From Gammaproteobacteria bacterium (GTDB lineage: Bacteria; Pseudomonadota; Gammaproteobacteria; Eutrophobiales; Eutrophobiaceae), in the NCBI GenBank assembly GCA_965205955.1, contig OZ242192.1, forward strand, positions 2,376,796 through 2,440,795: a DNA stretch of 64,000 bases, read 5' to 3'. Below the pieces are notes generated by a model. The model ran no database searches and was not told the origin of the DNA. It saw only the letters and a program-made list of their open reading frames with translations. Below, piece after piece: positions 1 through 9,357 of the stretch; within the stretch, counting starts at the first letter, position 1; each line of letters starts with the position of its first letter. The position numbers and the translations under genes are program-made.

Positions 1-302
1 GATACCGTGCCAGCAAAGTATGACCGTTATAATGAAAATCACCTATGACAGGCACCTCGCATCCCTTTGCCGCCAGCCGCTCGCAAATAGGCGCAACCTG
101 TCTCGCCGCCTCATCGGTATTAACAGTGACGCGAACCAACTCCGAACCCGCCGCAGCAAGCTGCCGGATCTGCGTGACGGTTGAATTCAAATCAGCCGTA
201 TCGGTATTGGTCATTGACTGCACAACAACAGGATGACCGCCGCCCATGGCCACTGAGCCTACCTTGACAGAAACACTATCGCGTCTCTTTGACAGCGCAC
301 AC
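1..302 (-). CDS. ispG: 4-hydroxy-3-methylbut-2-enyl diphosphate synthase IspG, N-terminal part (gene continues beyond the window start)
   Basis: Minus-strand translation reads ...[94 protein letters not shown]. This is colinear with the E. coli IspG N-terminus ([29 protein letters not shown]...). The in-frame start is probably GTG at 302; an internal ATG lies at 247. Confidence 0.8.
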
Positions 303-594
303 ATTGAAGACATTGAGTAAGGAACCCGACTATTGAATATAGCCGGCAGTCTCAATGACCGCAGCCTGACTGTCAAGAAAACAGAGAAAAAACCAGGGAG
401 TGTAGTACGTAAACATATTCAGTAGTATAATCGGATCCCTGATAAACAAAAGATCTAAGGAGTCTCTCACATGCAAATACCAACGCACATTTGTTGCACC
501 GCTTGCGGCATCCTTGCTGCTGGCCGGATACCGATTTCCTGTTTATCCCTCCATCGGTCTGGCGATGGCGGGCAAAAATCGAGAGGAAACAGCG

Positions 595-1023
595 ATGGAA
601 ACAACCGTTCATAGCACGGCGATGAGCCGGAAACATTCCGCCCTCGTCGCCGTTGCAGGCGTAGCTCTCGCCCTTCTACTTGCCTTCATTCTGACACTTT
701 TACCGAAAGAGAAAGCCATTCTTGCGCTCGCGGTTTTTGTCGGTATGTTCAGCGGCGTTTATTTCGGCGTGGCGCTGTCGCCGACCGGCATCAAAAATAC
801 AGTGATGAACATCGCCATGGCGCTGATTTTTTTGGCGCTTGCATTTCTAGGGGCATGGCTTAGTCCGATGTTTTTCGCACTGGCGTGCTTTATGCATGCA
901 GCGTGGGATTTTGTCATCGGGCATCCCAAGGCACTCAACGAGCCGATTGCCCCGTGGTACATGCCGATATGCGTCGGCGCAGATATTGTCCTCGGCGTAT
1001 TCATCATCTTCTGGTTTTTCTGA
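595..1023 (+). CDS. small integral membrane protein of unknown function, about 4 TM helices
   Basis: ORF 514..1023 is strongly hydrophobic (LVAVAGVALALLLAFILTLLP, AMALIFLALAFLGAWL). The ATG at 595 is preceded by GAGAGGAAA, a Shine-Dalgarno-like sequence, at -7. Confidence 0.5.
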   Translation: METTVHSTAMSRKHSALVAVAGVALALLLAFILTLLPKEKAILALAVFVGMFSGVYFGVALSPTGIKNTVMNIAMALIFLALAFLGAWLSPMFFALACFMHAAWDFVIGHPKALNEPIAPWYMPICVGADIVLGVFIIFWFF

Positions 1024-1226
1024 ACGGCGCATCGCGGCGGCGATAGACAGCTTCATTCCAAATAACAATTTTTCCAGGATTGAGCCGTGACCCGGCGCAA
1101 GACACGGTCACATTACTCCGCAGACCGGAAACGATGAACCCCATTTCGACCGGGATACAGGAAAGGGATCCATTCCCGCCCAAAAAAAGCATATAAACAG
1201 TCCTGACCTTAAGTTTTAGGCAGAAT

Positions 1227-1284
1227 TGTGACTCCGATCACGCATAAAGGCATATGAATTATCCGATTTGTGAACCAAGTCACA
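1227..1284. promoter_or_regulatory. two tandem CRP/FNR-family-like palindromic operator sites
   Basis: Site 1 is 1227-1242, TGTGActccgaTCACg. Site 2 is 1269-1284, TGTGAaccaagTCACA, a perfect CRP half-site consensus. Their centres are 42 bp apart, about four helical turns. Site 2 is centred about 42 bp upstream of a predicted start site after a TAAAAT -10-like hexamer (1306-1311), which is class II geometry. Confidence 0.35.
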
Positions 1285-1635
1285 ACTTATTCTAAATATA
1301 TCGTCTAAAATTACTTACAGTATCCATATAAACATATATAGGTGCCTGCAAGATGTATTTTTGAGTATGAGTGCTTGGGATCGTATCTACCACTTCCCTC
1401 CTTCCTCCGGTAACAACGGTTTCAAGCACTTTTTTTTCAGCGGTTCAATACCCACCATTCAAAAAAGCTCCCGGATAATTAAAGAAAGAATCTGCACAGC
1501 CTGATCGAACCCTGCGCAGATCCGACAAGCCCCGAACAAACTCACTACCGAGTTTCCGGATCCTCTGCCATTTTGTCAATCCCGGCACGGTAAACGGAAT
1601 GGAAAGGGGGGGCACAGCACATTTTCTCGGACGCA

Positions 1636-1666
1636 AATAAAAAAGGGCGGCACCGCAGCACCGCCC
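1636..1666 (-). terminator. rho-independent terminator of the tracrRNA
   Basis: Minus strand GGGCGGUGC-UGCG-GUGCCGCCC forms a 9-bp stem (two G-U wobbles) followed by UUUUUUAUUU. On the plus strand the sequence is aaataaaaaagggcggcaccgcagcaccgccc. Confidence 0.6.
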
Positions 1667-1768
1667 TTGCACCTTTATTAAAGGGTTTGGCGCGAATCTC
1701 GAAGATTCCTTGTTAACGGACTAACGAGACCGCATTTCCTTGTGTGTGTTTGACATTCTATCAAGCAC
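1636..1768 (-). ncRNA. tracrRNA (trans-activating crRNA) of the adjacent type II CRISPR-Cas system
   Basis: The minus strand at 1749..1726 reads ACACACAAGGAAAUGCGGUCUC. This is perfectly complementary (22-23 nt) to nt 9-31 of the crRNA-sense CRISPR repeat GUUGCGGUGAGACCGCAUUUCCUUGUGUGUUACAAU. It is followed by GUUAGUCCGUUAAC, which resembles the S. pyogenes nexus UAGUCCGUUAUC. Two small hairpins follow (GAAUCUUCGAGAUUC and CCUUUAAUAAAGG). The last element is a GC-rich terminator hairpin with a U-tract. A TTGACG-N16-TATAAT promoter lies just upstream on the same strand. Confidence 0.6.
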
Positions 1769-1779
1769 AATCTTATTAT
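1750..1779 (+). promoter_or_regulatory. candidate cas9 promoter, arranged face-to-face with the tracrRNA promoter
   Basis: Plus-strand TTGACA (1750-1755), 18 nt, then TATTAT (1774-1779). This -10 occupies the same AT-rich hexamer region as the minus-strand TATAAT of the tracrRNA promoter. The cas9 ATG is at 1819. Confidence 0.3.
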
Positions 1780-1802
1780 ACGAATTCATTCTCTATCGTC
1801 AA
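1775..1802 (-). promoter_or_regulatory. sigma70-like promoter for the tracrRNA
   Basis: The minus strand has TTGACG (1802..1797), 16 nt, then TATAAT (1780..1775). The predicted start site is about 1768, roughly 18 nt upstream of the anti-repeat. Confidence 0.45.
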
Positions 1803-1818
1803 CTGTTATCTACAAAAG

Positions 1819-4800
1819 ATGGGAAAATTTACAACTCGGCTAGGTTTAGATCTCGGCACGGATTCCATCGGCTGGATGCTTTATCGGCTTGCCGATGGCG
1901 GCGAAATTGCGTCCGTCATCGGCGGCGGTGTGCGCGTTTTCTCGGAGGGACGCAACCATAAAAGTTTAGCTTCGCTAAACGCGGACCGTCGCAAAGCGCG
2001 GAGCATACGGCGCAATTTTTTCCGCAAATCGCAACGGCGCAACCGGTTGTTGCAATCGCTGGCAGAATTCGGATTGTTTCCCGCGAAAACAGAAAACGGC
2101 GAAATCATCCCCGATTACATCACTGGAAAAGCATTGGAAAAATTAGACCCGTGGCGATTGCGTGCGGAAGGAGCGGCAAGAGCATTGCCGCCGTATCATG
2201 TCGGTCGGGCGTTATTTCACTTGAATCAGCGGCGCGGTTTCAAAAGCAACGCCAAAACTGACGACGAGAGCGACAGCAAAGTCATCGGCAAAGCGCGCGA
2301 AAAATTGCGCGAGGCGCGAGGCGAATTGACGGTAGGTCAATATCTTCACTCGCGTCGCCAAAACACCGACAGCCCCAGTCATGAACGCACTGTCCGCGCT
2401 CGCCCCCTCAAAGTAACCGCAAAAGGAGTGGGAGAATATGAGCCGCTGTATCCATTTCGGGACGACATCGCAGAAGAGTTTGACAGAATCTGGGACACGC
2501 AAAAAACCGCGAATCCCGATTTTGGAAAAACCGCAAGCGGCGAATGCGGACGCGAAATAATCCGCGCGATTATCGTCGACCAGCGCGACTTAAAACCGCC
2601 GATTGTCGGCAAATGCCCCTTTTATCCCGACTTGAATCGAGCGCCGATGGCGTTGCCGTCATTTCAACGATTCCGAATTTTCAACGATTTGAATCATCTG
2701 GAATACAGCGATGAAAACGGACTCCATCAACTGATCATCGATGAGCGCGAGAAGATTCTTGATTGGCTTTTGAGCAAGAATCGGATGTCCTTTGACGACA
2801 TGCGCGAGAAAATCCTTAAAAACGAAGGGGCGAAATTCAATTACGAAAAAACCATCCGGCTGAAGCGCAATAAGAATAAACCCGAAATAAGAGAGGGAGA
2901 GGAGAAAGCGCGCCGCAAAAGCATCAACGGCGACATCACCGGCTATAAACTCCGCAACGCTCTCGGCAAGCATTGGGGCGCGCTAAAATGCGAAAGCGGA
3001 CTTTTAGCAAGTCAGGATAAATTCGTCCAGATTCTTCTGGACGAAAGTGAGGAAACTGCGCGTAAAATTCTCACCGACTGGGGATTAAGCGAGGACGAAA
3101 TTACTGCGGCATTCAAGGTGACTGCAGGATTGCCGAAAGGTCGTGCGCGTTTTTCCGGCAAAGCGATTCGGGCGTTTATTCCATATCTGGAAAAAGGAGA
3201 TTTGCTCGGCGATGCAATTGACAATGCGCAAGCCGACGGAAAAATCGGCAAACGGCACACAGACGACGGCGGCAAAATTTACGACAAACTGCCGCGCTAT
3301 CAAGAGGTCGGGCGATTGCGTCATCTTTGCCTGCCGCGAGTCCCCGAAGACGAAGACAAACCGGAAAATCAACGCATTCCCAATCCGACCGTGCATGTCG
3401 GATTAAATCAAGTGCGCGCGGTGGTGAACGACATCATTCGCATTTATGAAATTGACAACAAATCGCTGCAGATTGCGCTGGAAATTGGCCGCGATTTGCC
3501 TGTCGGCGCGAAAGGTCGCAAGGAGCGCGAAAGAGAAAACTCGGACAACCGCGACAATAGCGAGCGCATCGCTGCGCGGCTGAAAGAATTCTCAAAATTC
3601 CGCAACATGGAGACATCTGACATAATCAAGCGCCACATGCACTACATTAAGAAATGGAAACTATGGGAGGAATTATCTAAAAATTGCCTTGACCGCAAAT
3701 GCGTATTTTGCGGAAAAGTTCAAATAACCGCCAAAGATCTCGTGTCGGCGGACAGCGGAATCGAAATTGAGCACATTCTTCCGTTTAAGGAAACGCTTGA
3801 CAACGGTTACATGAATTTAACTCTGGCCTGTCAGGCATGCAATCAGGCAAAGAGAAAGAATGACCCCTATGCGGCGTTTGGCCACGATGAATCCCGCTGG
3901 CTTGGAATTCGCAAACGCGCGAGCAAATTGCCGCATGCCAAATTCGGGCGTTTTGACAAAGGCGCGTTGGAAAAGCGCAAATTTGACAAGGATTCTTTTT
4001 TGCCGCGTCAACTGCCAGAAACGCAGTATATCAGCCGTGCGGCATTGCATTATCTGCAGGCGATTTGTCCGGATGTTTATGTCATGCCGGGACGACTGAC
4101 TGGATTACTGCGAAGCAAATGGGGACTTAACAGCATCCTCGCGGATTTTCGGGGCGACGACAAAGATAAAAACATCAGCACTAAAAACCGCGAAGATCAT
4201 CGCCATCATGCGATTGACGCGGCGGTCGTCGGCGCAACGACGCGAAGCGTTTTGCAAAAAGTGGCGACGGCGGCAAATACCGGAATGGACAGTGAGCACT
4301 TGTTTTCCGATAAGGTGCCATGGCCTACCGCCGGAGAGGAAAATTTTCGGCGGATGGTGAAATCGGCAATTGGCAAAATTGTCATTTCGCACAAGCCGCG
4401 CCGTCACAAACAGGGCAAACTGCACGACGAAACGGCCTATCGCGTTGGTAAACAAGATGGCCCTTGGACTGTTGTATCCCATCACATCCCCATTTCCAAA
4501 TTGACCGCGCAAGCTCTCTACGAGGAAACGTCAGAAAACGAATTCGCGAACACATGGGGAAAAGCCGCAAAACTCCGAGACCACAAAAATTTGCGGCGGC
4601 GCCTGATTGATTGGAAAACAGAATTCGGCGGCGATTTCAAAAAAGCTCTTGAAAAAGCGCGCGAATGCGGAATCCGCCGAGTTGAGGTAATGGAGCGAAA
4701 ACGAGCAGATTCGCTAATCCCAATTCGCCATAAAGGAAAAGGCGGCGACGGCGGAGTCAAGCATTACTTACCCGGCAGCAATTGGGCGTACGAAATTCGC

Positions 4801-5199
4801 CTTTGCCACAACGGACTATGGGAAGGCAAAGCCATCACCACCTTTGAAGCAAACGCTCGCAAAGCAGCCGATGAGACATCAGAGCCGCTCCCGCTTGTCA
4901 TGCGTCTACACCGCGGTGACATGGTGATTTTGCAAAACCCTAATGACAATGACTTGAAGAAATTGAGCAAGAAACACGGCTCAATAATCGGATATGTCAC
5001 TCAAATCAGTGACGGTTATGTCGCAATTGCAGAACATACTGATGCGGTTCCGGATAGTCGGAGTCGAAAAAATGACAACAGCCAGAGCCGCTTCATCTTT
5101 CTCACTTCGGGAGATGTTTTTCGAACACGAAAAGTGCGGAAGATAGATGTCAGCCCGGCGGGATTAATTCGGAAAAACCCCATTCCCACAAACCAATGA
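1819..5199 (+). CDS. cas9: Cas9 endonuclease, about 1127 aa, RuvC and HNH motifs intact
   Basis: RuvC-I: MGKFTTRLGLDLGTDSIGWML. Arg-rich bridge helix: RRKARSIRRNFFRKSQRRNRLL. RuvC-II: LQIALEIGRDL. HNH: IEIEHILPFKETLDNGYMNLTLACQACNQAKRKND, with CVFCG and CQAC zinc-ribbon cysteines. RuvC-III: HRHHAIDAAVVGATT. The gene overlaps the cas1 start (ATGA). Confidence 0.92.
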   Translation: MGKFTTRLGLDLGTDSIGWMLYRLADGGEIASVIGGGVRVFSEGRNHKSLASLNADRRKARSIRRNFFRKSQRRNRLLQSLAEFGLFPAKTENGEIIPDYITGKALEKLDPWRLRAEGAARALPPYHVGRALFHLNQRRGFKSNAKTDDESDSKVIGKAREKLREARGELTVGQYLHSRRQNTDSPSHERTVRARPLKVTAKGVGEYEPLYPFRDDIAEEFDRIWDTQKTANPDFGKTASGECGREIIRAIIVDQRDLKPPIVGKCPFYPDLNRAPMALPSFQRFRIFNDLNHLEYSDENGLHQLIIDEREKILDWLLSKNRMSFDDMREKILKNEGAKFNYEKTIRLKRNKNKPEIREGEEKARRKSINGDITGYKLRNALGKHWGALKCESGLLASQDKFVQILLDESEETARKILTDWGLSEDEITAAFKVTAGLPKGRARFSGKAIRAFIPYLEKGDLLGDAIDNAQADGKIGKRHTDDGGKIYDKLPRYQEVGRLRHLCLPRVPEDEDKPENQRIPNPTVHVGLNQVRAVVNDIIRIYEIDNKSLQIALEIGRDLPVGAKGRKERERENSDNRDNSERIAARLKEFSKFRNMETSDIIKRHMHYIKKWKLWEELSKNCLDRKCVFCGKVQITAKDLVSADSGIEIEHILPFKETLDNGYMNLTLACQACNQAKRKNDPYAAFGHDESRWLGIRKRASKLPHAKFGRFDKGALEKRKFDKDSFLPRQLPETQYISRAALHYLQAICPDVYVMPGRLTGLLRSKWGLNSILADFRGDDKDKNISTKNREDHRHHAIDAAVVGATTRSVLQKVATAANTGMDSEHLFSDKVPWPTAGEENFRRMVKSAIGKIVISHKPRRHKQGKLHDETAYRVGKQDGPWTVVSHHIPISKLTAQALYEETSENEFANTWGKAAKLRDHKNLRRRLIDWKTEFGGDFKKALEKARECGIRRVEVMERKRADSLIPIRHKGKGGDGGVKHYLPGSNWAYEIRLCHNGLWEGKAITTFEANARKAADETSEPLPLVMRLHRGDMVILQNPNDNDLKKLSKKHGSIIGYVTQISDGYVAIAEHTDAVPDSRSRKNDNSQSRFIFLTSGDVFRTRKVRKIDVSPAGLIRKNPIPTNQ

Positions 5200-6119
5200 C
5201 CGGGCGCATTGTTGAAATTGCCGAGGGCGGACGGCATCTCTCGCTGCATCGCGGATTTATGGAAGTGCGCCACAACGATGAATTGCTCGCGCGAATTCCG
5301 CTTGATGATTTGCTTGCCGTTATCGTCAGCGGACACGGCTGCACGCATTCTTCCAATCTTATCGCCGCTTTCGCCGAGCGCGGAACGCCTTTTATTATCT
5401 GCGCCGCAAACTATCAGCCGATTGCATGGACGATTCCGCTGTTCGGCCATCATGCGCAAAGCGCGCGAATGCAGGCGCAGGCCAGAGCTAAACTTCCTCT
5501 CAAAAAACGGCTGTGGCAGCAAGTTGTCCGCACCAAAATCAGCAATCAGGCCGCAGTGTTGGAGGTATTCGGTAGTGGCGGCAACCGATTGAAAAGGCTT
5601 TCAACTAATGTGCGCTCCGGAGACCCGTCTAATGTGGAAGCGCAAGCTGCAAGATATTATTGGAGTGCACTGTTCCCTGACAGATTCTCGCGCAATAAAA
5701 ACGGCGGAGGCATTAATTCTCTCTTGAATTACGGCTACGCGATAATTCGCTCGTGCGTCGCAAGAGGCGTGACGGCGGCGGGATTACATCCGACGATTGG
5801 CATTCATCATCGTGGGCCGACCAATCCAATGTGTCTTGTGGACGATCTGATGGAACCGTTTCGTCCGCTTGCCGATTGCGTTGTTCGGAATCTCATCGAC
5901 AAAGGAATCCATGAAATCAGCCCCGATGTTAAAAGGATTCTCGCTTCGCTCGCCGTGATGGACATGCCCGGTCCGTCCGGCGTAACAACTTTGTTTACCG
6001 CCGCCGCACGGTTTGCCACTTCACTCGCGCAAATTCTAATGGGCGAAAATTCATCTTTGGAAACGCCGCAAATGCCGACACCGCTTACGCTGTTGTCAGT
6101 TGCCGACGGCAATGACTGA
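5196..6119 (+). CDS. cas1: Cas1 integrase
   Basis: 307 aa with typical Cas1 motifs: EAQAARYYW, SLLNYGYAIIRSCVARGV, HPTIGIHHRG and CLVDDLMEPFRP. The start ATG overlaps the cas9 stop. Confidence 0.9.
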   Translation: MTGRIVEIAEGGRHLSLHRGFMEVRHNDELLARIPLDDLLAVIVSGHGCTHSSNLIAAFAERGTPFIICAANYQPIAWTIPLFGHHAQSARMQAQARAKLPLKKRLWQQVVRTKISNQAAVLEVFGSGGNRLKRLSTNVRSGDPSNVEAQAARYYWSALFPDRFSRNKNGGGINSLLNYGYAIIRSCVARGVTAAGLHPTIGIHHRGPTNPMCLVDDLMEPFRPLADCVVRNLIDKGIHEISPDVKRILASLAVMDMPGPSGVTTLFTAAARFATSLAQILMGENSSLETPQMPTPLTLLSVADGND

Positions 6120-6228
6120 AGGCTAAGCAGCTATCGTATAATGCGGCATCGTTTGCGCCCCCCCGCATGATGACTGAAATATTGAGTAGCTATCGGATAA
6201 TGTGGATGTTTGTGATGTTTGAGACCTG
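6113..6228. repeat. diverged 58-bp tandem duplication of the cas1-stop/cas2-start junction
   Basis: Unit 1 (6113-6170) is atgactgaaggctaagcAGCTATCGtATAATGcgg.... Unit 2 (6171-6228) is atgactgaaatattgagtAGCTATCGgATAATGtgg.... Unit 1 retains only a 4-codon relic, ATGACTGAAGGCTAA, overlapping the cas1 stop. Unit 2 supplies the cas2 start, MMTEILSSYR. Confidence 0.6.
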
Positions 6229-6504
6229 CCGGTGGGAACGAAAAAAGAACGCACTCAGGCAACCAGTTTTCGCAATCATCTGCTCGGTCTTGGGTTTGAA
6301 ATGGTGCAGTTTTCTGTTTATTCGCGTTTCTGCTCAGGTAAGGAGCGCGTGGAAACCTTGGCGCAACAAGTCGCCGCGAATCTGCCGGTGGGCGGTAAAG
6401 TGGACATCCTTTCATTTACCGACAAGCAGTACGAAAACATTATCAGCTTTGAAGGGCGCACACCGCAAACGCGTGAAAAACCGCATCAACTCACGCTGCT
6501 ATGA
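6167..6504 (+). pseudogene. cas2: cas2 with a frameshift (net +2/-1 nt near 6221-6226), or a sequencing error in an otherwise intact cas2
   Basis: Frame A from ATG 6167/6170 gives MMTEILSSYRIMWMFVMFE.... Frame B from 6223 gives DLPVGTKKERTQATSFRNHLLGLGFEMVQFSVYSRFCSGKERVETL...GKVDILSFTDKQYENIISFEG. Together they are colinear with S. pyogenes Cas2 ([47 protein letters not shown]...[22 protein letters not shown]). Deleting GA from tttGAGAcctg restores ATG TTT GAC CTG CCG, which is M F D L P. In frame B a TGA at 6220-6222 sits just upstream of the first Cas2-like codon. Confidence 0.6.
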
Positions 6505-6577
6505 ATCGAATCGCCGCGTTTTTTGGAAGGGAATCGCCCTCGTTTTTCCCGCAAATTCAATGGGATAGACAAGGACG

Positions 6578-7802
6578 ATTGTAACACACAAGGAAATGCG
6601 GTCTCACCGCAACGGAATCCCGGAATTAGCAAAGCACTATTTTATTGTAACACACAAGGAAATGCGGTCTCACCGCAACTTTGCTCCAGATACCTGTATA
6701 TAACTGGTTAATTGTAACACACAAGGAAATGCGGTCTCACCGCAACTGACTCTCTTGAGGACCGCCGACGCGCCGAATTGTAACACACAAGGAAATGCGG
6801 TCTCACCGCAACGCTTTGGCGATACTGGCAAGAGCGTGATAGATTGTAACACACAAGGAAATGCGGTCTCACCGCAACCTAAAATGCAACTGATAGGGAT
6901 GCTGTGTCATTGTAACACACAAGGAAATGCGGTCTCACCGCAACTTGAAATGTCACAACCCCCGCAAGTATTATATTGTAACACACAAGGAAATGCGGTC
7001 TCACCGCAACGCCGGTGTTGCGTTCGAGCGCCTGCATTTGATTGTAACACACAAGGAAATGCGGTCTCACCGCAACGATATTTCGATGCTGAAGGTGCCT
7101 CGGCTGATTGTAACACACAAGGAAATGCGGTCTCACCGCAACTGATTTGCAAAATGAGGTAGATCGTTGTATATTGTAACACACAAGGAAATGCGGTCTC
7201 ACCGCAACACTCACTCTCTTCAATCTTGCTCTGTAGTCATTGTAACACACAAGGAAATGCGGTCTCACCGCAACAGCAACAATCGTGCCAGAAAACCTAA
7301 AAGTATTGTAACACACAAGGAAATGCGGTCTCACCGCAACGGCGCATTATTGAAAGCCCGCACGTGTAACATTGTAACACACAAGGAAATGCGGTCTCAC
7401 CGCAACTGAAGAAACCTACTACCAAAAAATACGTCAATTGTAACACACAAGGAAATGCGGTCTCACCGCAACGAAAAGAGATTTGCCCCAAAGCGGACTA
7501 TCATTGTAACACACAAGGAAATGCGGTCTCACCGCAACTAATAGGTGTTATGCGCCATGCCTGTGGGTATTGTAACACACAAGGAAATGCGGTCTCACCG
7601 CAACCACAAACAACGGCTTATGTCAAGTTTTGCTATTGTAACACACAAGGAAATGCGGTCTCACCGCAACAGTCATTGAGTCTCAGGCAGTAGCTATCCT
7701 ATTGTAACACACAAGGAAATGCGGTCTCACCGCAACAGTCATCAAGGCCGGGCTGGCCACCCTTTGATTATAACCCACAAGGAAATGCCACTTCACCGCA
7801 AC
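6578..7802 (-). CRISPR. CRISPR array of 19 repeats (36 bp) and 18 spacers (30-31 bp); the terminal repeat (7767-7802) is degenerate; transcribed on the minus strand from promoters embedded in each repeat
   Basis: The plus-strand repeat ATTGTAACACACAAGGAAATGCGGTCTCACCGCAAC starts at 6578, 6644, 6711, 6777, 6843, 6909, 6975, 7041, 7107, 7173, 7239, 7305, 7371, 7437, 7503, 7569, 7635 and 7701. A degenerate copy, attataacccacaaggaaatgccacttcaccgcaac, is at 7767. The reverse complement GTTGCGGTGAGACCGCATTTCCTTGTGTGTTACAAT ends in an extended -10 (TGnTACAAT). The N. meningitidis II-C repeat does the same (GTTGTAGCTCCCTTTCTCATTTCGCAGTGCTACAAT). Confidence 0.95.
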
Positions 7803-7896
7803 CGGTGCAATGTTAGCCCTTGAGTGATAATCAGCTTTGCACCGAACCCGACTGCGGCTATAATAGGCCGTTAATTCTCTGTGGCCTGGACCGATA

Positions 7897-9357
7897 ATGC
7901 GTATAACTGAAGAAGCATTGACCTTTGATGATGTATTGCTCGTACCGGATTATACCGAGATCCTGCCGCGTGATGTGTCTTTGCGGACTCGGCTGACGCG
8001 ACGGATAGAGTTGAATATCCCGCTGATCTCCGCGGCAATGGATACCGTTACCGAATCGGGAGTCGCGATAGCGCTGGCTCAGGAGGGAGGGATTGGGATC
8101 ATTCATAAGAATATGAGCCCGGAGATGCAGGCGGAAAATGTTCGGCGAGTCAAAAAATATGCAAGCAGTGTGATCAAGGATCCGCTCACGGTTGGGCCCT
8201 ATACCAGTATCCAGGAAGTTATCGATTTAACCCGGGAAAACAATATCTCCGGTGTGCCGGTTGTGGATGGCGAAGAGCTGGTTGGCATTGTTACCAGCCG
8301 TGATTTCAGGTTTGAAAAGAAGACAAGCGATCCGGTCAAAAATATTATGACGCACAAGAAAGACCTGGTGACAGTGCGGGAAAATGCCACCAAGGATAAA
8401 GTGCAGGATTTGCTGCACCGGCATCGGATTGAAAAAATACTTGTAGTCGATGACGAGTTTCGGCTGGCCGGGCTGATTACGGTCAAGGATATGCAAAAGG
8501 CGTCCCAATATCCAAATGCCTGTCTGGATGAAGCGAGGCGTCTCCGTGTCGGTGCGGCGGTGGGTGTAGGCAAGGCATCCATGGAGCGCGTCGAACAATT
8601 GGTTGACGCGGACGTTGATGTGATTGCGGTGGATACGGCACACGGGCACTCGAAGGGGGTGCTGGACATGGTCAAATGGATCAAGGCGCAATTTGAAGAT
8701 ATTCAGGTAATCGGCGGGAATATTGCCACCGGAGAGGCGGCGCTTGCATTGGCGGATGCGGGAGCGGATGCGGTCAAGGTGGGTATAGGTCCGGGGTCAA
8801 TTTGCACTACCCGTGCCATCAGCGGTGTCGGCATACCGCAAATATCCGCGATAGCGAATGTTGCCAAGGCCCTCAGGGAAAAGGCGATCCCGATAATTTC
8901 GGATGGAGGAATACGCTATTCCGGTGATATTGCCAAGGCCCAGGCTGCCGGCGCCTATAGTACGATGATCGGCGGTTTGTTTGCCGGATGCGAGGAGGCG
9001 CCGGGCGAGATCGAGCTTTATCAGGGCCGCTCCTACAAGTCTTACCGCGGCATGGGGTCTGTTGGGGCAATGTCACAGCAGCATAATTCATCGGATCGTT
9101 ATTTTCAGGAAAATGATGAGATTGAAAAACTGGTTCCGGAAGGGGTGGAAGGCCGGGTGCCTTATAAAGGGCCGCTGGCGGCAATAGTGCATCAATTGCT
9201 CGGCGGTGTCAGGGCGGCGATGGGCTATACGGGTTGTTTGACCCTGAAAGAGATGCGGGAAAAGGTGCGTTTCGTTCGTCTGACCGGGGCGGGCTTCAGA
9301 GAAAGCCATATCCATGACGTTACGGTTACCAAAGAACCACCGAATTACAGAATTTAA
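7897..9357 (+). CDS. guaB: IMP dehydrogenase
   Basis: 486 aa, colinear with E. coli GuaB: [23 protein letters not shown], two CBS domains and the C-terminal KEPPNYRI. Confidence 0.95.

What the first reader, a model, noticed from the sequence alone, without database searches (positions are those of the whole stretch)
6578..7802. Each CRISPR repeat carries its own extended -10 promoter; the array is transcribed antisense to the cas operon
The reverse complement of the repeat ends in TGTGTTACAAT, which is TGn plus TACAAT. This is the arrangement shown for N. meningitidis type II-C, where crRNAs start inside the spacers and RNase III processing is dispensable. The tracrRNA polarity and terminator independently require minus-strand crRNAs. 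The degenerate terminal repeat (7767-7802) has lost tracrRNA complementarity but improved its -10 to TATAAT, consistent with a promoter-only role for the outermost spacer. Every repeat-borne promoter fires toward cas2 and cas1, and the cas2-proximal one reads into them, so antisense transcription of the adaptation genes is expected. Gene content is II-C (no csn2 or cas4), yet cas2 and the tracrRNA nexus look II-A/S. pyogenes-like.
Basis: partly seen in the sequence, partly recalled or inferred. Interest (0 to 1): 0.5.

Follow-up and report, generated by a model that had tools for sequence, protein, structure and literature searches.

The report
Type II-C CRISPR array with repeat-borne promoters
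This is a Cas9 (type II-C) CRISPR locus in a Nitrospirales-like bacterium whose repeats each end in a promoter-like sequence pointing back at the cas genes; the same layout is already documented in Neisseria and Campylobacter, so it is a sound but ordinary finding.

Summary
Window 6578-7802 contains 19 repeats of 36 nt (18 identical, one degenerate) and 18 spacers of 30-31 nt. On the minus strand every intact repeat ends in TGT-TACAAT. A conserved tracrRNA gene upstream of cas9, also on the minus strand, has its own promoter and terminator and fixes the crRNA strand as minus, antisense to cas9-cas1-cas2.

Among 47 distinct repeats from related II-C loci, 43 end in TAnnnT and 17 in TGnTAnnnT. 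T31, A32 and T36 are nearly invariant while position 33 is free, which matches a sigma-70 -10 profile. This hexamer lies outside the crRNA:tracrRNA duplex.

Repeat-embedded promoters are already shown experimentally for N. meningitidis and C. jejuni type II-C systems, so this is a new member of a known kind. Promoter activity here is inferred, not shown.

- The terminal repeat improved its hexamer to TATAAT but lost the TG.
- Terminal-repeat decay across relatives is a gradient from the outer end and is not promoter-specific.
- The "S. pyogenes-like nexus" is actually the lower stem and bulge of the anti-repeat.
- cas2 carries a 2-nt frameshift.
- Antisense transcription into cas2 is plausible but untested.

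The parts
1639..1772 (-). tracrRNA gene. The upper-stem anti-repeat is at 1747-1726 (ACACACAAGGAAATGCGGTCTC), the bulge GTTAGT at 1725-1720, and the lower-stem anti-repeat CCGTTAAC at 1719-1712. These are followed by the hairpin GAATCT-TCG-AGATTC and an intrinsic terminator at 1668-1643 plus a T-run. The 5' end is either about 1772 (from the TTGACG/TATAAT promoter) or about 1750 (from TGATAGAAT).
   Evidence: The gene is conserved with its promoter and terminator upstream of cas9 in 8 relatives. The terminator stem covaries.
1755..1802 (-). tracrRNA promoter region. It contains -35 TTGACG (1802-1797), -10 TATAAT (1780-1775), and a second possible extended -10, TGATAGAAT (1763-1755). On the + strand it overlaps a cas9 promoter candidate, TTGACA-18-TATTAT (1750-1779).
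   Evidence: 11 of 12 matches on each strand.
1819..5199 (+). cas9, 1126 aa, type II-C.
   Evidence: TIGR01865, E 7.6e-152. (an identical protein is in the public database). (the best solved relatives are compact Cas9 entries, which I recognise from memory as NmeCas9/GeoCas9-type II-C enzymes).
5196..6119 (+). cas1, 307 aa, type II (NMENI) subtype.
   Evidence: TIGR03639, E 3.9e-68.
6167..6504 (+). cas2, interrupted by a 2-nt GA insertion at 6221-6224 (tttGAGAcc). The N-terminal 18 codons are in one frame. The rest (6232-6504) is in another frame, behind a TGA stop.
   Evidence: L013, L015 and L017 lack the GA. (the repaired protein matches PF09827).
6505..6577 (.). Leader-like segment between the cas2 stop and the first repeat. 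The 45 nt next to the repeat (about 6533-6577, GTTTTTCCCGCAAATTCAATGGGATAGACAAGGACG) are conserved in all close relatives.
   Evidence: The segment is conserved even in L014, L016 and L018, which have lost cas1-cas2.
6578..7802 (-). CRISPR array: 19 repeats of 36 nt and 18 spacers of 30-31 nt. The crRNA sense is the minus strand. The first 9 nt of each + strand repeat (for example 6578-6586) are the extended -10, TGTTACAAT, on the minus strand.
7767..7802 (-). Degenerate terminal repeat at the cas-distal, oldest end, which is the upstream end for transcription. It has 6 mismatches: crRNA-sense positions 11-14 (tracr-pairing region), 28 (TG to GG) and 33 (TACAAT to TATAAT). It cannot form part of any crRNA. 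Its only possible role is as promoter for spacer 18 (7737-7766).

Best explanation
This is a type II-C CRISPR-Cas9 locus in the order tracrRNA(-), cas9, cas1, cas2, leader, array.

crRNAs are made from the minus strand, convergent with the cas operon. Each 36-nt repeat ends, in crRNA sense, with an extended -10 element (TGT TACAAT). RNA polymerase with sigma-70 would use it without a -35 box and start about 5-8 nt into the adjacent spacer. Each unit would then give a primary transcript made of about 23-25 nt of spacer followed by the next repeat.

That repeat pairs with the tracrRNA anti-repeat: nt 1-7 with CCGUUAAC, then a bulge, then nt 9-30 with ACACACAAGGAAAUGCGGUCUC. The duplex is loaded into Cas9. 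RNase III may trim the 3' end but would not be needed to create the 5' end.

New spacers enter at the cas2-proximal, leader end, which is the downstream end for transcription. Per-repeat promoters therefore keep every spacer expressed regardless of its position.

Shown here: the array, the motif, the strand, the tracrRNA and its pairing, and clade-wide conservation of the -10 pattern. Inferred: promoter activity, start sites and RNase III independence, all by analogy with N. meningitidis and C. jejuni.
For: - All 18 intact repeats carry TGnTACAAT at the 3' end in crRNA sense.
- The strand is fixed by a tracrRNA gene with its own promoter and terminator, conserved in 8 relatives.
- Cofolding gives the same two-stem duplex in 7 lineages. 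There are compensatory changes: repeat position 25 G to A with tracr C to U in L015/L017, and GUUGUGGC with GCCAUUAAC in L019. The -10 hexamer stays unpaired in the closest lineages (window, L001, L014, L015, L017); L018 and L019 show a few pairs reaching into its first bases.
- Close relatives differ at hexamer positions 3-5 (TACAAT, TAGAAT, TAAAAT, TAAATT, TATAAT) but keep T1, A2, T6 and TG.
- Among 47 distinct II-C repeats, TAnnnT sits at the last 6 nt in 43, and in 0 on the other strand. Information content is 1.85, 2.0 and 1.66 bits at T31, A32 and T36, against 0.05 bits at position 33.
- The cas-distal flank differs between relatives (guaB, hemN, others), so there is no conserved external promoter. 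None is found on the minus strand beyond 7802.
- The leader is conserved at the cas2 side and degenerate repeats sit at the distal side.
- Literature: repeat-embedded promoters and start sites inside spacers are shown for C. jejuni (PMC3656092: repeat ends GGTAAAAT, start at spacer position 5) and N. meningitidis (PMC12477760: start at the 6th nt; PMC5965381). Acquisition at the 3' end of II-C arrays is reported in PMC12638026.
Against: - No transcript data exist for this organism, so promoter use, start sites and strength are not shown.
- Conservation of the repeat's last bases could partly reflect Cas1-Cas2 integrase recognition of the leader-repeat junction rather than transcription.
- Only 17 of 47 related repeats have the TG. 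Many relatives would therefore need a plain -10 with no recognisable -35, which is a weak promoter by E. coli rules.
- The terminal repeat, whose only possible role is as a promoter, has lost its TG here and in L013. Two inner degenerate repeats of L001 have broken hexamers.
Confidence: 0.8

Rival explanations
1. The array is transcribed on the minus strand as one long precursor, either from an external promoter or by read-through from beyond the cas-distal end, and is cut only by RNase III with tracrRNA. On this view the TAnnnT ending is conserved for another reason, such as recognition of the leader-proximal repeat end by the Cas1-Cas2 integrase.
For: - The conserved motif abuts the leader-repeat junction where integration occurs.
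- Terminal-repeat decay is a simple gradient from the outer end, not specific to the promoter segment.
- In L014, L016 and L018 a hemN gene on the crRNA strand ends at or in the last repeat, so read-through is conceivable there.
Against: - No minus-strand promoter is found beyond 7802.
- The distal flank is unrelated among relatives while the motif is kept.
- The conserved positions are exactly T1, A2 and T6 of a -10 hexamer, with position 3 free.
- The motif is kept in L014, L016 and L018, which have no cas1-cas2.
- The same motif at the same place is a proven promoter in two II-C species (PMC3656092, PMC12477760).
Confidence: 0.12
2. The TGnTACAAT ending is a chance feature of this repeat and has no function.
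For: A single 36-nt sequence copied 18 times counts as only one observation.
Against: - The chance at a fixed position is about 0.001.
- The pattern is kept through sequence change in relatives: 43 of 47 distinct repeats on this strand, 0 of 47 on the other.
Confidence: 0.02
3. crRNAs come from the plus strand, co-directional with the cas genes as in type II-A, and the minus-strand motif is irrelevant.
For: The cas operon reads toward the array, and no strong terminator follows cas2.
Against: - The tracrRNA anti-repeat has the same sense as the + strand repeat, so it can pair only with minus-strand transcripts.
- In minus sense the repeat starts GUUGC, as other Cas9 repeats do.
- The literature states that II-C arrays are oriented opposite to cas2 (PMC7665894).
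Confidence: 0.02

Closest known systems
Neisseria meningitidis type II-C CRISPR-Cas9 (Zhang et al. 2013, as described in PMC5965381, PMC7665894 and PMC12477760)
   Same: - Gene set of cas9-cas1-cas2 only.
- 36-nt repeats and 30-nt spacers.
- Array transcribed opposite to the cas operon.
- Each repeat ends in TGnTACAAT. The relative L014 has exactly TGCTACAAT, which from my own memory is also the Nme repeat ending.
- The leader, and therefore acquisition, is at the transcription-downstream end.
- The best solved Cas9 relatives are entries I recognise from memory as NmeCas9-type.
   Different: - Cas9 is distant: the match to those entries is E about 1e-39 to 1e-41, and no solved close relative exists.
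- The host is Nitrospirales-like.
- The repeat body differs.
- The tracrRNA lies upstream of cas9 and is divergently transcribed.
- cas2 is frameshifted.
- No experimental data exist.
Campylobacter jejuni minimal type II-C system (Dugar et al. 2013, PMC3656092)
   Same: A -10 box sits in the 3' part of each repeat, and transcription starts inside each spacer. Only cas9, cas1 and cas2 are present, with a tracrRNA.
   Different: The Cje repeat ends GGTAAAAT, with no TG, whereas here a full TGn is present. Cje Cas9 is much smaller, and crRNA 3' maturation there depends on RNase III.
Type II-A systems (S. pyogenes, S. thermophilus)
   Same: Related Cas1 and Cas2, dual-RNA Cas9, and a repeat:anti-repeat duplex with a bulge.
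   Different: II-A has csn2, a leader promoter that drives one pre-crRNA co-directional with the cas genes, and no -10 in the repeat. The 10-nt identity of the tracrRNA here to the S. pyogenes nexus (UAGUCCGUUA, from my own memory of the sgRNA scaffold) falls in a different structural element.

Membership tests
Type II-C CRISPR-Cas | Cas9 effector of the II-C lineage | tested here: met
   (TIGR01865, 507.8 bits). In one search the best PDB matches are compact Cas9 entries (9ar4, 6jdq, 8ja0, 8uza) ahead of St1Cas9 (6rj9). Assigning the top entries to NmeCas9/GeoCas9-type II-C enzymes rests on my own memory, since the output labels them only 'Cas9'.
Type II-C CRISPR-Cas | Adaptation module of cas1 and cas2 only, with no csn2 (II-A) or cas4 (II-B) | tested here: met
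   The gene order is DUF6010, tracrRNA, cas9, cas1, cas2, array, guaB, guaA. cas2 carries a frameshift.
Type II-C CRISPR-Cas | tracrRNA with an anti-repeat complementary to the repeat | tested here: met
   About 29 base pairs in two stems, conserved and covarying in 7 lineages. No Rfam family matched.
Repeat-embedded crRNA promoters (Nme/Cje type) | -10 element (TAnnnT, often TGn-extended) at the 3' end of the repeat in crRNA sense, adjacent to the spacer it drives | tested here: met
Repeat-embedded crRNA promoters (Nme/Cje type) | Array oriented opposite to cas9-cas1-cas2 | tested here: met
   (tracrRNA polarity). In one search the 58 surveyed II-C arrays recovered with a repeat of 33-37 nt, plus L019 (35 nt), all read GTT...AAC-type in crRNA sense on the strand opposite cas9; the other 10 recovered repeat fragments were too short to judge.
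Repeat-embedded crRNA promoters (Nme/Cje type) | Primary (5'-triphosphate) transcription starts inside each spacer | not testable with these tools
   Needs dRNA-seq or 5' RACE from this organism.
Repeat-embedded crRNA promoters (Nme/Cje type) | crRNA 5' ends and interference independent of RNase III | not testable with these tools
   Needs genetics or an in vitro assay.
Repeat-embedded crRNA promoters (Nme/Cje type) | Spacer acquisition at the transcription-downstream (cas2-proximal) end | tested here: inconclusive
   This is indirect. The leader is conserved at the cas2 side and degenerate repeats occur only at the distal side. However, the relatives share no spacers, so polarity could not be read from spacer turnover.

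The most novel reading that the evidence does not exclude
The promoter in the leader-adjacent repeat (6578-6613) has no spacer to express and no terminator ahead of it. It would therefore produce a constitutive RNA that runs through the conserved leader and antisense into cas2 and cas1. This RNA, rather than being a by-product, could throttle the adaptation genes or mark the leader. That would add a transcriptional layer to the recently described control of II-C spacer acquisition by crRNA abundance.
Probability: 0.12. Interest if true: 0.45.

Novelty: new member of a known kind. Interest (0 to 1): 0.2.

Why it matters
The finding extends a textbook peculiarity of type II-C systems to a Nitrospirales-like lineage: one promoter per repeat, an array antisense to the cas genes, and acquisition at the transcription-downstream end. 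The survey of 47 distinct repeats shows that the -10 signature is the rule across a broad clade of 36-nt-repeat II-C systems, not an oddity of two pathogens.

In practice it gives the correct strand, the tracrRNA and the likely guide length (about 23-25 nt) for anyone annotating or engineering this Cas9. It does not change what is known about the mechanism.

Tried and rejected
- **Protospacer search, to obtain a PAM and an independent strand call.** The whole array was searched against phages and plasmids with blastn. The 24-nt 3' parts of four spacers were searched against IMG/VR. All 152 spacers of the window and its relatives were compared with the window and all loci. Nothing usable came back: the only two hits were 16-17 nt matches of relatives' spacers (L014_sp3 in the window, L019_sp2 in L017), too short to count as protospacers.
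- **Rfam search of 1-9000.** No tracrRNA or other family was found. The three weak hits inside cas9 are chance.
- **Terminator between the first repeat and cas2 on the minus strand.** None was found. The fold of 6572-6440 is no better than shuffled sequence (z 0.45).
- **The repeat hairpin GCGGU-GAG-ACCGC plus AUUUCCUU, flagged as terminator-like.** I considered it as a unit-length terminator and rejected it. The stem is short and the U-tract poor, the tail is not U-rich in L019, and the region is the tracr-pairing segment.
- **Terminal-repeat decay as evidence for selection on the promoter.** Rejected as specific evidence. Mismatches fall off from the outer end (72, 33, 9 and 7 per 9-nt block), and the promoter block does not differ from its neighbour (p 0.8).
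- **A II-A-like nexus.** Rejected.
- **Zhang et al. 2013 and Mir et al. 2018.** Neither could be opened. Their content is cited only through papers that describe it.

Full report
**What is there**

Window 6578-7802 is a CRISPR array of 19 direct repeats of 36 nt. Eighteen are identical. The last one (7767-7802) differs at 6 positions. They are separated by 18 spacers of 30 nt, one of them 31 nt.

Upstream on the + strand lie three cas genes:
- cas9 at 1819-5199 (TIGR01865, E 7.6e-152);
- cas1 of the type II subtype at 5196-6119 (TIGR03639);
- cas2 at 6167-6504.

The flanking genes are a DUF6010 gene on one side and guaB/guaA on the other. There is no csn2 or cas4. The best solved relatives of the Cas9 are compact Cas9 entries that I recognise from memory as NmeCas9/GeoCas9-type II-C enzymes. 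The closest named genome is a Nitrospirales MAG with 76% Cas9 identity. The gene content is type II-C.

**The motif**

The reverse complement of the repeat is GTTGCGGTGAGACCGCATTTCCTTGTGTGTTACAAT. The consensus scan flags all 18 intact repeats on the minus strand with a TG before the hexamer. Because the 18 copies are one sequence, the fair chance estimate is for a single site, about 0.001.

**Which strand makes crRNA**

A tracrRNA gene lies just upstream of cas9 on the minus strand. It has these parts:
- a promoter, TTGACG-16-TATAAT, at 1802-1775;
- a second possible extended -10, TGATAGAAT, at 1763-1755;
- an anti-repeat at 1747-1712;
- a small hairpin;
- a strong intrinsic terminator at 1668-1643.

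The same gene, with promoter and terminator, sits upstream of cas9 in eight relatives whose Cas9 is 38-87% identical. The terminator stem covaries.

The anti-repeat has the same sense as the + strand of the repeats, so it can pair only with minus-strand transcripts. Cofolding in seven lineages gives one architecture:
- repeat nt 1-7 (GUUGCGG) pair with tracr CCGUUAAC;
- the tracr has a bulge (GUUAGU);
- repeat nt 9 to about 30 pair with ACACACAAGGAAAUGCGGUCUC.

Compensatory changes support this. Repeat position 25 G to A goes with tracr C to U in L015 and L017. GUUGUGGC goes with GCCAUUAAC in L019.

The array is therefore read antisense to the cas operon. The literature describes the same orientation for II-C arrays (PMC7665894).

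**Is the motif under selection?**

In the close relatives the last six bases of the repeat are TACAAT, TAGAAT, TAAAAT, TAAATT or TATAAT, always preceded by TGn. The variable positions are hexamer positions 3-5. T1, A2, T6 and the TG do not change.

I then collected 80 further II-C loci from metagenomes and extracted their arrays. Among 47 distinct 36-nt repeats, all on the strand opposite cas9:
- 43 end in TAnnnT and 17 in TGnTAnnnT;
- none does so on the other strand;
- information content is 1.85, 2.0 and 1.66 bits at positions 31, 32 and 36, against 0.05 bits at position 33.

This is the profile of a sigma-70 -10 element. In the closest lineages the hexamer lies outside the crRNA:tracrRNA duplex, so pairing does not explain it.

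The cas-distal flank of the array is unrelated among relatives (guaB here and in L013, hemN in L014, L016 and L018, other genes elsewhere). No minus-strand promoter is detected beyond 7802. There is therefore no conserved external promoter.

**Comparison with what is known**

[quoted passage not shown] They also showed that primary transcripts start at position five of each spacer (PMC3656092).

Reviews state that many II-C repeats contain promoters (PMC7665894). [quoted passage not shown]

The window fits every sequence-level feature of this known arrangement. Promoter activity, start sites and RNase III independence are inferred by analogy, not shown.

**Polarity of the array**

The 45 nt next to the cas2-proximal repeat are conserved in all close relatives. 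This holds even in L014, L016 and L018, which have deleted cas1 and most of cas2. Degenerate repeats occur only at the cas-distal end. This points to a leader at the cas2 side, with the oldest spacers at the transcription-upstream end, as in Neisseria. The relatives share no spacers, so polarity could not be read directly.

**The terminal repeat**

The repeat at 7767-7802 cannot be part of any crRNA, and its tracr-pairing segment is damaged (positions 11-14).

It overlooked that position 28 changed TG to GG, so the element is now GGT-TATAAT. The TG loss is shared with L013, which keeps TACAAT. The C to T change that makes TATAAT is specific to the window. This is compatible with compensation, but it is a single case.

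Across 20 independent degenerate terminal repeats, the 121 mismatches fall 72, 33, 9 and 7 in successive 9-nt blocks counted from the outer end. The promoter block is strongly depleted relative to a uniform spread. It does not differ from the neighbouring non-promoter block (p 0.8). The pattern is a decay gradient and gives no specific evidence for a promoter-only role.

**Antisense transcription of cas2/cas1**

The leader-adjacent repeat carries the same promoter and faces cas2. No terminator is found on the minus strand of the leader, and its fold is no better than shuffled sequence. Read-through is therefore plausible but untested. The same geometry exists in Neisseria, so this is not a peculiarity of this locus.

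**The II-A resemblance**

The tracrRNA segment UAGUCCGUUAAC does share ten bases with the S. pyogenes nexus (from my own memory of the sgRNA scaffold). Here, however, it precedes the AAGG that follows the anti-repeat. Its CCGUUAAC pairs with the crRNA 5' end and covaries. It is the bulge plus lower stem, not a nexus.

All five PDB matches to Cas2 are labelled only 'Cas2'. From my own knowledge they are type II-A proteins, and they were the only solved relatives found. This says nothing about subtype.

**Side observation**

cas2 is split between two frames by a GA insertion at 6221-6224. The insertion is absent from L013, L015 and L017. It falls just before the conserved DLPV motif. It is either a real inactivation of adaptation or an assembly error.

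**Verdict**

It is, however, a known property of type II-C systems seen in a new lineage. Interest is low (0.2). Novelty: a new member of a known kind.

Noticed in passing
window 6167-6504 (insertion at 6221-6224): cas2 is frameshifted by a 2-nt GA insertion (tttGAGAcc) just before the conserved DLPV motif. The relatives L013, L015 and L017 have the intact reading frame. This is either a real loss of adaptation or an assembly error.
   Followed up: yes
L014 11351-11519; L016 7589-7756; L018 11204-11268: Three relatives from one sample have deleted cas1 and nearly all of cas2. They keep the last codons of cas2 (L014 and L016), the conserved leader, and arrays of 9-13 repeats with unrelated spacers. 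This raises the question of how those arrays are maintained or renewed.
   Followed up: partly
window 1750-1802: The tracrRNA promoter (minus strand, TTGACG-16-TATAAT) and a cas9 promoter candidate (plus strand, TTGACA-18-TATTAT, 1750-1779) overlap back-to-back. The cas9 -35 box lies inside the 5' part of the long tracrRNA form.
   Followed up: no
window 6533-6577 and the equivalent positions in L001 and L013-L018: A 45-nt leader core (GTTTTTCCCGCAAATTCAryrGGATAGACAAGGrCG) is conserved much better than the neighbouring non-coding sequence. It is probably the integration signal. It would also be the first part of any transcript started from the leader-adjacent repeat.
   Followed up: partly
window repeats, for example 7734-7720 (minus strand): In crRNA sense each repeat contains a small hairpin, GCGGU-GAG-ACCGC, followed by AUUUCCUU, which the scan flags as terminator-like. 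A related GCGG...CCGC hairpin recurs in many GTTGCGG-class II-C repeats of the survey. Its significance is unknown.
   Followed up: partly
window 7671-7700 and 7737-7766: The two oldest spacers (17 and 18) both end in ATGACT in crRNA sense, so on the + strand both begin AGTCAT. This could be chance, at about 4% for any pair among 18 spacers.
   Followed up: no
L001 11783-11884: In the Nitrospirales MAG relative, two inner degenerate repeats near the old end have broken -10 hexamers (TGGAAT, CAGAAT), while the outermost repeat reads TGC-TATAAT. Promoter quality therefore varies among the old units.
   Followed up: partly
L002, L006, L007, L009, L012: Bacteroidota Cas9 loci picked up by the genome scan have 47-nt repeats, 38 nt in L006. 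These repeats are also on the strand opposite cas9, and their crRNA sense starts GTTGTGA. I did not examine them for Bacteroidota-type promoter motifs.
   Followed up: no
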